Shown here piece by piece: positions 2,153-3,645 of a DNA stretch of 15,612 nucleotides. This DNA is from a virus (Duplodnaviria; Heunggongvirae; Uroviricota; Caudoviricetes), in the IMG/VR virus record IMGVR_UViG_2778261247_000017, one strand, 5' to 3'. A model generated the notes under the pieces. It saw only the letters and a program-made list of their open reading frames with translations, did not search any database and was not told where the DNA came from. The position numbers and the translations under genes were made by a program. How positions within the stretch are numbered: the stretch's first letter is position 1; every line of letters starts with the position of its first letter.

Positions 2153-2752
2153 TTATTCCTCCTTATTATTTTTAGCGTTATCTTGTTTGTTTCGTAAGGT
2201 CATAAAAGTATTATACCAACTAGAAACACGAAATATAGCAAAAACGGCAGCTAACGCAGAGAATACTGAGTAAATAAATATAAAGTATGCAAAGAAGCTG
2301 AATGTTAACAGTACATACCTGTAAGCAACACCTAAATAATAATACATAAAGGCGTTATTTATGAGAATGCTACTATAGGCCTTGGTGACCAAGGCCGTTA
2401 TTATAGTTAACAACTGCAATAATATAAAATGAACAAAGGTTGCATTCACAGACATATAAGGGGAATATTCTACCTCTCCATTTTCACTTTCTTCATCTCC
2501 AGTTATTATTTTTTTGAAGGCCTCATCTCCAATAGCAATCCACATAGCAAAACCACCCAGTGAAAAACCCAAAAGGTTCGGCATTAACGACAGAATATCA
2601 TTCCACCACCCCTGATGAGACCAAGATGGATAAAGAATCACTGTCATAAAAAAAGCACACCAAAAATAGCGACTTTTAAATACAGCCCCAGCGCCACCAT
2701 AGATCTTCCAGTATCTAGCCATTGCACTGGTTGATTCTTTTACTTTACTCAT
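2153..2752 (-). CDS. polytopic inner-membrane protein (4-5 predicted TM helices), unknown family; distal gene of a two-gene AT-rich cassette
   Basis: 199-codon ORF whose ATG (2750-2752) overlaps the upstream stop in a TAATG junction. Hydrophobic stretches RYFWCAFFMTVILYPSW, LLGFSLGGFAMWIAIG, ATFVHFILLQLLTIITALV and VLLTFSFFAYFIFIYSVFSALAAVFAIF. Visibly AT-rich. Confidence 0.7.
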   Translation of the reverse strand: MSKVKESTSAMARYWKIYGGAGAVFKSRYFWCAFFMTVILYPSWSHQGWWNDILSLMPNLLGFSLGGFAMWIAIGDEAFKKIITGDEESENGEVEYSPYMSVNATFVHFILLQLLTIITALVTKAYSSILINNAFMYYYLGVAYRYVLLTFSFFAYFIFIYSVFSALAAVFAIFRVSSWYNTFMTLRNKQDNAKNNKEE

Positions 2753-3645
2753 TACTTTCTCAGAAGCCTCTTAAACTCATCTGCTAAAGATTTTGCTCTT
2801 AATAACAATAGCTCAGTAACTGATGTTACGTCAGAATCATATGATTCAACCCTTTGAAGTGGTAAATCGCTTGAGGCATGAACCTCAACTAATCCCGCCT
2901 CATTAATCCTACGTATGCTAACTTCGCCATTTCTCGAAGCAATAAGAGCATCCTGCTTTAACTCACTATCAGGTTTAATTTCCTGACCACGCTCAGATTT
3001 ATATGTTTTATCTTCTTCAATAACGCCAATACGTTTGAAACGCTTTTGCATAATACTTTCTGCAGAAGCGAGATCATCTGGGTTAGGACGTCGAGTAACC
3101 ATATTTATACACGTAATGCCTTTTAAAGAAAGCATACGTTCTACGTTATCTGGCTCGGTTAATATTGTAACATTAATCTTCCCAAACTTCTCTATAATTC
3201 TCTCATGAGAAAATATTCCATTCAGAAAATTTTCTATTTGTTTTGATGTAAGATGCCGACCTTTGTCCTGCATCTCATAAACTAAAAGATGGCTGGCAGG
3301 TAGAAAAACAAAAGAGAATCGAGCCACATTTGGTTTTAAATTCTCAGGTATACTTATCCTTTCCTTTTGCTCATCTGAGGCAATGTCTTTCTTTACAATA
3401 TCGAACCAATCTCCATCAACATCAATATCTGTATACTTTAGAATTTCCCCTTCAAAAGGTTCACTAACTACCTGATCTTTCCTGTAAGGATAAAAGTGTG
3501 ACAAAGTCGCGAAAGAGTCCCCCCTCAAATTAACATTTCTCGCGTTTTTTCTTGCCATTCTGAACAATTCTACATATTTTTCTGGCGAGTGGGGATGCAT
3601 TGTTATATTCACCGCCCCATAAGTTAATTTTTTTGGTCTTGCCAT
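2752..3645 (-). CDS. 297-aa soluble protein of unknown family; proximal gene of the two-gene AT-rich cassette
   Basis: ATG at 3643-3645 with AAGGAAA upstream; charged, non-repetitive translation; no Walker A, HEPN or convincing nucleotidyltransferase motif seen by eye. Coupled to the membrane gene. Confidence 0.75.
   Translation of the reverse strand: MARPKKLTYGAVNITMHPHSPEKYVELFRMARKNARNVNLRGDSFATLSHFYPYRKDQVVSEPFEGEILKYTDIDVDGDWFDIVKKDIASDEQKERISIPENLKPNVARFSFVFLPASHLLVYEMQDKGRHLTSKQIENFLNGIFSHERIIEKFGKINVTILTEPDNVERMLSLKGITCINMVTRRPNPDDLASAESIMQKRFKRIGVIEEDKTYKSERGQEIKPDSELKQDALIASRNGEVSIRRINEAGLVEVHASSDLPLQRVESYDSDVTSVTELLLLRAKSLADEFKRLLRK

What the first reader, a model, noticed from the sequence alone, without database searches (positions are those of the whole stretch)
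2153..3645. Two-gene AT-rich cassette: candidate undescribed anti-phage / abortive-infection module
A 297-aa soluble protein and a 199-aa 4-5-TM membrane protein are translationally coupled (TAATG overlap) in DNA visibly more AT-rich than the core, at the att-distal end where satellites carry defence cargo. The soluble-sensor plus small-membrane-effector layout is analogous to RexA/RexB or Kiwa (order reversed relative to Kiwa), but I see no recognisable domain motifs. That is why it may be new.
Basis: inference. Interest (0 to 1): 0.8.

Follow-up and report, generated by a model that had tools for sequence, protein, structure and literature searches.

The report
Rex-like two-gene phage-exclusion cassette
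The two genes are real and sit in the cargo slot of a phage satellite, but they are not undescribed: the soluble protein is a DUF4747 protein with the fold of phage lambda's RexA sensor, always paired with a small four-helix membrane protein, so it is an untested member of the known RexAB-type abortive-infection systems.

Summary
Observation confirmed. Two minus-strand genes (3645-2752, 297 aa; 2752-2153, 199 aa) overlap in TAATG. Their GC is 36% against 49% for the element core, and they lie about 680 bp from the att-distal end of a thrW-integrated, PICI-like satellite of E. coli APEC IMT5155.

Protein 2 is a 4-TM protein from a large family without a Pfam model (1155 clusters). It shows no detectable relation to RexB.

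The pair is obligate. In 26 of 27 species-representative loci a DUF4747 gene lies directly upstream of the partner gene. It always sits in mobile-element cargo slots: lambdoid, P2-like and filamentous prophages, and a true P4-like satellite hotspot. Rousset 2022 already lists it as P4 hotspot cargo, and a 2026 EMBO J paper calls it "DUF4747/CarolAnn".

Best reading: a Rex-type sensor plus membrane effector working by abortive infection. This is inferred and untested. Verdict: new member of a known kind, moderate-to-low interest.

The parts
2752..3645 (-). Gene 1: 297-aa cytosolic DUF4747 protein with a RexA/RdgC-type two-domain fold (proposed sensor / DNA-binding component)
2153..2752 (-). Gene 2: 199-aa four-helix inner-membrane protein (proposed effector), from a conserved family without a Pfam model
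   Evidence: ORF. No Pfam, PADLOC or NCBIfam hit; PHROG 20580 E=1.2e-35. AF2 pLDDT 83 with four long helices. Hydropathy. Invariant motifs YWxxYGG, LGFSLGG, FxHFIxxQ and a near-invariant RVSSWY. 1155 clusters in a profile search. No relation to RexB by hhalign.
2750..2754 (-). TAATG stop/start overlap (translational coupling)
   Evidence: Sequence. Overlaps of 1, 4 or 16 nt are conserved in 7 loci from 5 genera.
2127..2158 (-). Terminator-like hairpin followed by a T-run, immediately after the gene 2 stop codon
   Evidence: Consensus scan. It lies inside the segment shared with the P4-like copy.
3646..3766 (-). 121-bp upstream leader that travels with the cassette. Presumed own promoter plus an AAGGAA ribosome-binding site. 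The promoter is inferred, not located.
   Evidence: Homology with the P4-like satellite copy ends at 3766. Sequence. The only consensus promoter match overlaps the ATG and is not usable.
1859..2035 (+). Decayed remnant (in-frame stops) of the C-terminal part of a P4-type integrase gene, carried on the 3' side of the cassette
   Evidence: tblastn with the NCTC10973 P4-like integrase, aa 275-326, 47% identity. Same int/cassette arrangement as in the P4-like satellite.
1453..1469 (.). Distal att core (copy of the tRNA-Thr 3' end), marking the end of the satellite. The cargo slot runs from here to about 3914-4233.
   Evidence: Repeat search and alignment. Backbone relatives lose homology at 3914 (SA31-1) or 4233 (2017-02-2CC).

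Best explanation
The cassette is a RexAB-type (Rex-like) two-component phage-exclusion module carried as exchangeable cargo by phage satellites and prophages. Shown: gene 1 encodes a DUF4747 protein whose predicted structure has the split globular domain plus central alpha/beta dimerisation domain of lambda RexA and RdgC. Shown: gene 2 encodes a 4-TM membrane protein that is essentially always encoded directly downstream. Shown: the pair occupies variable cargo slots of mobile elements. Inferred by analogy with lambda RexAB, CarolAnn gp44/43, Sbash gp30/31 and P. putida RexABpp: the DUF4747 protein is a dimeric, non-specific DNA-binding sensor that responds to a phage protein or a replication or recombination intermediate. 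It then activates an oligomer of the membrane protein. That oligomer permeabilises or depolarises the inner membrane, which lowers ATP and aborts the infection through growth arrest or death of the infected cell. The conserved, probably cytoplasmic segments of the membrane protein (N-terminal YWxxYGG, the ends of the TM2-TM3 loop, C-terminal RVSSWY) are the likely docking or gating surface. The invariant polar residues H108 and Q113 in TM3 are candidate pore or gate residues. Both assignments are inference.
Confidence: 0.65

Rival explanations
1. Butters-type reversed roles, or a toxin/antitoxin-like stabilisation module. Here the cytosolic DUF4747 protein is the active (toxic or antiviral) component, and the membrane protein sequesters or restrains it. 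The pair would then defend, or stabilise its island, without forming a membrane pore.
For: In mycobacteriophage Butters, the RexA-like gp30 is the main antagonist and the 4-TM gp31 modulates it. DUF4747 has strictly conserved polar motifs that are unexplained by DNA binding alone (H119, E124, R186-P-N-P-D190). The tight translational coupling fits a stoichiometric pair.
Against: The membrane protein is the more conserved partner at long range (about 44-51% against 32-42% identity in matched pairs). It also carries invariant intramembrane polar residues, which suits an effector better than a passive anchor. In four of the five described Rex-like systems the membrane protein is the effector. No nuclease or other enzyme fold was found for protein 1.
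Confidence: 0.12
2. A life-cycle regulator of the mobile element rather than a defence system. Like lambda RexA, the DUF4747 protein would bind DNA and bias the lysogeny/induction decision, or modulate helper-phage exploitation, with the membrane protein antagonising it.
For: RexA biases the lambda switch towards lytic growth independently of RexB, and RexB antagonises this. The fold is shared with the recombination modulator RdgC. In Shewanella an HTH gene overlaps the start of the pair.
Against: The same cassette sits in unrelated element types with entirely different regulatory circuits: PICI-like, P4-like, lambdoid, P2-like, filamentous, and an island with no visible phage genes. Closely related backbones do without it. 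That is the behaviour of cargo, not of a core regulator.
Confidence: 0.1
3. An ordinary accessory membrane function (transport or envelope stress) unrelated to phages, carried by chance on mobile DNA.
For: Protein 2 has no annotated family, and nothing has been tested experimentally.
Against: There is no similarity to any transporter or enzyme family in Pfam, NCBIfam or PDB. The gene is strictly linked to a RexA-fold protein. The pair lies exclusively in mobile-element or defence-island contexts in every locus examined.
Confidence: 0.03

Closest known systems
Phage lambda RexA/RexB exclusion system (Pfam PF15969/PF15968; PDB 8TWQ)
   Same: Two adjacent co-oriented genes, with the soluble protein first and a small 4-TM membrane protein second. 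The soluble protein has the same two-domain RexA/RdgC fold, and RexA is its best solved-structure match. Carried by a temperate mobile element.
   Different: No sequence-level similarity to RexA or RexB, and different Pfam families. The membrane protein is longer (199 against 144 aa) and has its own conserved motifs. The genes overlap rather than being separated. The cassette is not in an immunity region beside a cI repressor but in a satellite cargo slot.
Actinobacteriophage Rex-like systems: CarolAnn gp44/gp43, Sbash gp30/gp31, Butters gp30/gp31
   Same: Soluble protein plus 4-TM protein with experimentally shown defence. The literature connects their soluble proteins to DUF4747 by weak HHpred matches. 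A 2026 paper uses the label 'DUF4747/CarolAnn' for operons of the present type.
   Different: Here the DUF4747 match is full-length and very strong (E~1e-97), whereas CarolAnn gp44 and gp43 hit no Pfam family at all. I found no similarity between the two sets by BLASTP or profile-against-sequence. Sizes also differ (297 against ~370 aa).
Pseudomonas putida prophage RexABpp (PP_5643/PP_5644), Sci Rep 2026
   Different: The authors report only hypothetical-protein BLAST hits and do not mention DUF4747.
Sucellos (SclA/SclB; probably VCA0367-0368 by my inference from primer names) from the Vibrio cholerae chromosomal integron
   Same: [quoted passage not shown] Both genes are required, SclB is predicted to form a pore, and homologues are reported 'often in Salmonella' prophages. 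The present family is also common in Salmonella.
   Different: Whether Sucellos is the same family, a sister family or unrelated could not be tested, because no sequence was accessible. No V. cholerae-sized cluster appeared among the top homologues, which argues mildly against identity.
Kiwa (KwaA/KwaB)
   Same: A membrane protein plus a soluble protein, possibly acting by abortive infection or DNA binding.
   Different: KwaB is DUF4868 (from memory; a DUF4868 entry appears as separate P4-hotspot cargo) and the gene order is reversed. No Pfam or PADLOC Kiwa match and no Kiwa structure among the listed fold hits. Not related.
RdgC (recombination-associated DNA-binding protein)
   Different: RdgC is a housekeeping stand-alone gene with no membrane partner. 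The present protein matches RexA better and is mobile cargo.

Membership tests
Pfam DUF4747 (PF15931) | Full-length match above the curated gathering score | tested here: met
   327.2 bits against a cut-off of 27, E=9.5e-98, profile positions 1-257 of 257. RefSeq names the protein a DUF4747 family protein.
RexAB-type (Rex-like) two-component exclusion systems | Cytosolic component with the RexA fold (split globular domain plus inserted dimerisation domain, RdgC-like) | tested here: met
RexAB-type (Rex-like) two-component exclusion systems | Small polytopic (4-TM) membrane protein encoded directly downstream in the same operon | tested here: met
   TAATG overlap. Four long helices. Pairing conserved in 7 of 7 and 26 of 27 loci.
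RexAB-type (Rex-like) two-component exclusion systems | Sequence membership of the soluble protein in the RexA family (Pfam PF15969 / PADLOC RexA) | tested here: not met
   No RexA hit in Pfam or PADLOC, although lambda RexA hits both. BLASTP and hhalign against RexA are negative.
RexAB-type (Rex-like) two-component exclusion systems | Membrane protein homologous to RexB (Pfam PF15968) | tested here: not met
   No Pfam or PADLOC RexB hit. BLASTP negative. Profile-profile hhalign of the two families gives probability 0.2%. RexB is absent from the BFVD fold hits.
RexAB-type (Rex-like) two-component exclusion systems | Both genes required for phage exclusion; the activated membrane protein depolarises or permeabilises the membrane | not testable with these tools
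   Requires plaque, growth-collapse and membrane-potential assays.
RexAB-type (Rex-like) two-component exclusion systems | Soluble protein dimerises and binds DNA non-specifically | not testable with these tools
   Shown for RexA, Sbash gp30, CarolAnn gp44, Toast gp42 and RexApp. Here it would need SEC-MALS and EMSA, or a multimer prediction that was not available.
CarolAnn gp44/gp43 family | Detectable sequence homology to gp44 and gp43 | tested here: not met
   BLASTP and profile-against-sequence hhalign are negative for both proteins. The comparison had low power because the CarolAnn side was a single sequence. DefenseFinder's CarolAnn models could not be run.
Sucellos (SclA/SclB) | Sequence homology to the V. 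cholerae SclA/SclB proteins (probably VCA0367/VCA0368) | not testable with these tools
   The sequences are not in any accessible collection. Only the descriptions were read.
Kiwa | KwaB (DUF4868) plus KwaA membrane protein | tested here: not met
   No DUF4868 hit in Pfam and no Kiwa hit in PADLOC.
Cargo of the P4-like satellite int-psu defence hotspot (Rousset et al. 2022) | Located between int and psu of a P4-like satellite | tested here: inconclusive
   Met for the 87-88% identical copy in E. coli NCTC10973 (int, cassette, psu, delta-like, sid-like), whose protein WP_023196287 is the entry in Rousset Table S1. Not met in the window itself: its element has no annotated or detected psu, sid or delta and looks PICI-like. 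It does carry a decayed P4-type int fragment beside the cassette.

The most novel reading that the evidence does not exclude
DUF4747 plus its partner may be an independent and very widespread lineage (over 1000 clusters, several phyla). In it, a RexA/RdgC-fold DNA sensor is wired to a membrane effector family with no detectable sequence relation to RexB, which has no Pfam model and no solved or annotated relative. If so, Rex-type defence is a modular sensor class that has recruited different membrane effectors. This E. coli-native, compact and strongly conserved pair would then be a tractable model for how a Rex-type sensor gates a membrane protein, a question open since Benzer's rII work. The invariant H119/E124/RPNPD motifs in the sensor could also point to an activity beyond DNA binding.
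Probability: 0.35. Interest if true: 0.5.

Novelty: new member of a known kind. Interest (0 to 1): 0.33.

Why it matters
If it defends, it adds a native E. coli and Salmonella representative to the very small set of characterised Rex-like systems; a 2026 paper counts five. Its membrane effector is not RexB, it is highly conserved and it has clear candidate functional motifs. That makes it useful for dissecting how Rex-type sensors trigger membrane effectors. The case also documents one defence-type cassette moving between two different satellite families (P4-like and PICI-like) together with a scar of the neighbouring integrase gene. On the practical side, the family is missed by PADLOC v2, so the membrane-partner family deserves an HMM of its own.

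Tried and rejected
1. Sequence searches of both proteins against PDB chains found nothing.

2. tblastn of protein 1 against 50,697 phage records found no match.

3. PADLOC v2 gave only a spurious GajB fragment at E=0.012. NCBIfam gave nothing meaningful.

4. BLASTP and hhalign of the two families against RexA, RexB, CarolAnn gp44/gp43 and Rousset's pFR86 proteins were all negative. The Rex link is therefore structural only. pFR86 protein 1 proved to be Pfam RexA, a different family from DUF4747.

5. The fold search of protein 2 against AFDB50 was unavailable. Against BFVD there were no significant hits.

6. The Kiwa analogy was rejected.

7. The promoter scan's only hit near the start overlaps the ATG and cannot serve this gene. 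The promoter was not located.

8. Rfam found nothing in the window.

9. A 20-nt, 80% inverted repeat flanks the cassette (2151-2170 / 3729-3748). I judged it a probable chance match in AT-rich DNA.

10. I tried to decide whether Sucellos is the same family. Its sequences were not obtainable, and the single genome-contig scan returned no Vibrio cholerae locus.

11. The two-gene cargo in the same slot of strain 2017-02-2CC has no Pfam hit and only a weak PADLOC hit (PDC-M02B, E=2e-4). It therefore does not add proof that the slot is defence-specific.

Full report
**1. Observation**

The window is 100% identical to a stretch of the chromosome of E. coli APEC IMT5155.

- The two ORFs are on the minus strand: 3645..2752 (297 aa) and 2752..2153 (199 aa).
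- They are joined by a TAATG stop/start overlap.
- Both are annotated in RefSeq, as "DUF4747 family protein" WP_001601654.1 and "hypothetical protein" WP_016262943.1.
- Cassette GC is 0.364 against 0.488 for the element core.
- Protein 1 has no hydrophobic segment. Protein 2 has four long helices in its AlphaFold model, two of them strongly hydrophobic.
- Lys/Arg residues are concentrated in the N-terminus, the central loop and the C-terminus. This fits an N-in/C-in 4-TM topology (my count on the sequence with the helices).
- A terminator-like hairpin directly follows the second stop codon.

**2. The host element**

The element is integrated at tRNA-Thr (thrW) next to proA. Its genes are:

- a P4-type tyrosine integrase (14398-15612);
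- an AlpA/excisionase-type HTH (13129-13326);
- an AntA-like gene and an Icd-like gene;
- a D5-type primase-helicase (7668-9482);
- ProQ/FinO-like and PerC-like genes;
- a 178-aa protein whose N-terminus resembles a small terminase or excisionase HTH (4451-4987).

No sid, psu, delta or capsid genes are annotated or were detected among the ORFs scanned. It therefore looks like a PICI-like satellite rather than a canonical P4.

The 17-bp tRNA 3' end is repeated at window ~1453-1469. Beyond it lie an older integrase remnant (960-1298) and the MarR/vat toxin island. The cassette therefore sits about 680 bp inside the att-distal end.

This end is a variable cargo slot:

- Strain MFDS1006657 has the same cassette (98% identity from 1451 to 5593).
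- Strain SA31-1 has a 95% identical backbone whose homology begins only at window 3914. It carries no cassette.
- Strain 2017-02-2CC carries a different pair of unknown genes (275 + 259 aa) in the same place.

**3. Protein 1**

It is a full-length Pfam DUF4747 match (E=9.5e-98) and belongs to PHROG 10040. The statement that no domain is recognisable is therefore wrong.

An AlphaFold model built on 38 homologues is confident (pLDDT 91.7, pTM 0.87).

- Foldseek against the PDB puts lambda RexA (8TWQ) first (E=3.1e-7, probability 1.0). E. coli RdgC follows, and nothing else scores below E=1e-2.
- The order of secondary-structure elements matches RexA's split globular domain with an inserted dimerisation domain: an N-terminal beta-sheet domain, a central four-strand/four-helix domain, then return strands and a long C-terminal helix.

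At sequence level I found no similarity to RexA, CarolAnn gp44 or Rousset's RexA-family protein. PADLOC v2 contains RexA and RexB models but does not detect this protein. The relationship is thus at fold level and rests on a prediction.

**4. Protein 2**

It has no Pfam, NCBIfam, PADLOC or PDB match, only PHROG 20580.

The family is strongly conserved. Invariant or near-invariant residues form the motifs YWxxYGG, MPNLLGFSLGG(F/Y)AMWxAIGD, SPYMxVNAxFVHFILLQ and RVSSWY(D/N).

A profile search of 1.84 billion representative proteins finds 1155 clusters at E<=1e-3 and 861 at E<=1e-10.

Profile-profile comparison with a RexB family alignment gives probability 0.2%. RexB does not appear among the BFVD fold matches. 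The protein is therefore not a detectable RexB homologue.

In matched pairs from the same contigs, the membrane protein stays at 44-51% identity where the DUF4747 protein falls to 32-42%. That pattern suits a constrained effector paired with a faster-evolving sensor, although this reading is an inference.

Rare relatives carry extra domains. One has an N-terminal region with a Walker-A-like motif (seen by eye only). Another has a weak GNAT-like C-terminus below the Pfam cut-off.

**5. Linkage and context**

The partner gene directly follows the DUF4747 gene, overlapping it by 1, 4 or 16 nt, in 7 of 7 loci from five genera.

In a scan of GTDB species-representative genomes seeded with the membrane protein, 26 of 27 loci have a DUF4747-profile hit immediately upstream on the same strand. 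These include Acinetobacter, Haemophilus, Nitrosomonas, Desulfobulbaceae, Chloroflexi and Bacteroidota.

Every context examined is mobile or defence-associated:

- between the Q antiterminator and the holin gene of three Providencia lambdoid prophages;
- beside gpD in a Shewanella P2-like prophage, preceded by an HTH gene;
- in an Aeromonas island flanked by TIR, KAP NTPase and AbiH genes;
- in a Citrobacter rodentium island with an integrase;
- in a filamentous-phage-like element and in a small integrative element;
- directly after int in a Vibrio parahaemolyticus prophage.

In E. coli NCTC10973, a copy with 87-88% nucleotide identity lies between int and psu of a true P4-like satellite at ssrA.

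In the window, a decayed fragment of a P4-type integrase C-terminus (1859-2035, with in-frame stops) lies beside the cassette in the same arrangement. This suggests the cassette was acquired from a P4-like hotspot together with a piece of int.

The cassette is rare in E. coli: 13 of 5426 complete genomes, all chromosomal.

**6. Literature**

- Weak HHpred matches to DUF4747 were used in 2019-2020 to connect lambda RexA with the defence proteins Sbash gp30, CarolAnn gp44 and Butters gp30.
- The RexA crystal structure showed the RdgC-like fold, dimerisation and non-specific DNA binding, and the same properties for three actinophage homologues.
- P. putida RexABpp is a validated fifth Rex-like system. 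Its membrane protein is the growth-arresting effector, activated by RexA overexpression.
- Rousset et al. 2022 list "DUF4747 + hypothetical" (WP_023196287 + WP_089520072) among P4 hotspot cargo but did not test it. Their two RexA-family constructs appear only in the table of additional tested systems, not among the seven validated ones.
- A 2026 EMBO J paper counts 17 "DUF4747/CarolAnn" operons, those listed being in Acinetobacter, as immune operons downstream of the DNA-damage regulators CapK/CapS. My scan shows that Acinetobacter DUF4747 genes carry the same partner family.
- "Sucellos" from the V. cholerae integron is a validated RexAB-like pair not matched by the RexA Pfam model. It is reported often in Salmonella prophages. 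I could not obtain its sequence, so whether it is this family is open.
- Only eight papers in the searchable library mention DUF4747, and none reports an experiment on a bona fide DUF4747 operon.

**7. Mechanism**

*Shown.* The architecture, the fold assignment, the obligate pairing and the residence in cargo slots.

*Inferred by analogy with RexAB, CarolAnn, Sbash and RexABpp.*

- The DUF4747 protein acts as a dimeric DNA-binding sensor triggered by a phage protein or a replication or recombination intermediate.
- It activates an oligomer of the 4-TM partner.
- The partner depolarises or permeabilises the membrane and aborts the infection.
- Candidate functional sites are the conserved, probably cytoplasmic segments and the TM3 residues H108 and Q113 of the partner. 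In the sensor, the H119/E124 and R186-PNPD190 motifs are candidates.

*Rivals.*

- A Butters-type arrangement in which the soluble protein is the effector.
- A role in the element's own lysogeny/induction control, as described for RexA.
- An unrelated membrane function. The data argue against this one.

**8. Verdict**

The cassette is not an undescribed kind of system. It is an experimentally untested member of the RexAB-type class. Its sensor belongs to a named Pfam family, and the pair has already been catalogued as satellite hotspot cargo.

What is modestly new here:

- fold-level evidence tying bona fide DUF4747 to RexA;
- the finding that its obligate partner is a large, unmodelled family with no detectable relation to RexB;
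- the exchange of the cassette between P4-like and PICI-like satellites.

Interest is moderate to low (0.33).

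Noticed in passing
window 1859-2035 (+): A decayed C-terminal fragment of a P4-type integrase (47% identity to aa 275-326, with in-frame stops) lies beside the cassette, arranged as in the P4-like satellite of E. coli NCTC10973. The mechanical 115-aa ORF at 1681-2028 (-) overlaps it antisense and is probably spurious.
   Followed up: yes
window 960-1469, and L001 29560-29694: Tandem islands at thrW. A ~135-bp repeat (about 90% identical) comprises the tRNA-Thr 3' end plus the int-proximal intergenic region. It separates this satellite from an older integrase remnant (Arm-binding domain only, 960-1298) and the MarR/vat autotransporter-toxin island.
   Followed up: partly
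L011 5122-6729 (E. coli 2017-02-2CC): A related satellite backbone carries a different pair of adjacent genes (275 + 259 aa) in the same cargo slot. They have no Pfam hit and only a weak PADLOC PDC-M02B hit (E=2e-4). This is a possible uncharacterised defence candidate.
   Followed up: partly
P0317 (407 aa) and P0253 (363 aa), relatives of protein 2: Rare relatives of the membrane partner carry extra domains. One has an N-terminal ~230-aa soluble domain with a Walker-A-like motif (GPVGSGVSKT, seen by eye, no Pfam hit). The other has a C-terminal extension with a weak FR47/GNAT match below the Pfam cut-off. This hints that the 4-TM module can be combined with other domains.
   Followed up: partly
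window 4189-4279: Two 36-nt direct repeats (75% identical, 55-bp spacing), each beginning TTGACACTTT, lie between the 59-aa ORF and the terS-like gene. They could be duplicated promoter elements or binding sites. The cause is unexplained.
   Followed up: no
window 2151-2170 and 3729-3748: A 20-nt inverted repeat (80% complementary) brackets the cassette almost exactly. It is probably a chance match in AT-rich DNA, but it lies inside the segment shared with the P4-like copy.
   Followed up: no
window 4451-4987 (-): A 178-aa protein whose N-terminal HTH matches a small-terminase PHROG (phrog_57, E=1.7e-6) and excisionase families. It may be the satellite's packaging-redirection or small-terminase-like gene, which would support a PICI-like classification.
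   Followed up: partly
window 10720-12258 (-): A 512-aa mechanical ORF has no Pfam hit and is not annotated as one gene in RefSeq. RefSeq places an Icd-like gene and opposite-strand YlcI/YnfO-family genes there. It is probably not a real 512-aa gene.
   Followed up: no
window 5751-6250: A local GC peak (0.61) over the ProQ/FinO-like gene contrasts with the 0.36-0.49 of its surroundings. RefSeq flags this gene as frameshifted, although the window has an intact 176-aa ORF (5909-6439).
   Followed up: no
L004 7691-8011 (Shewanella dokdonensis): In the P2-like prophage copy, a 106-aa HTH_3 gene overlaps the start of the DUF4747 gene, forming a three-gene operon. In Acinetobacter the operon reportedly follows capK/capS. 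Regulation of the pair therefore differs between hosts. The E. coli copy has no regulator gene in the shared segment.
   Followed up: no
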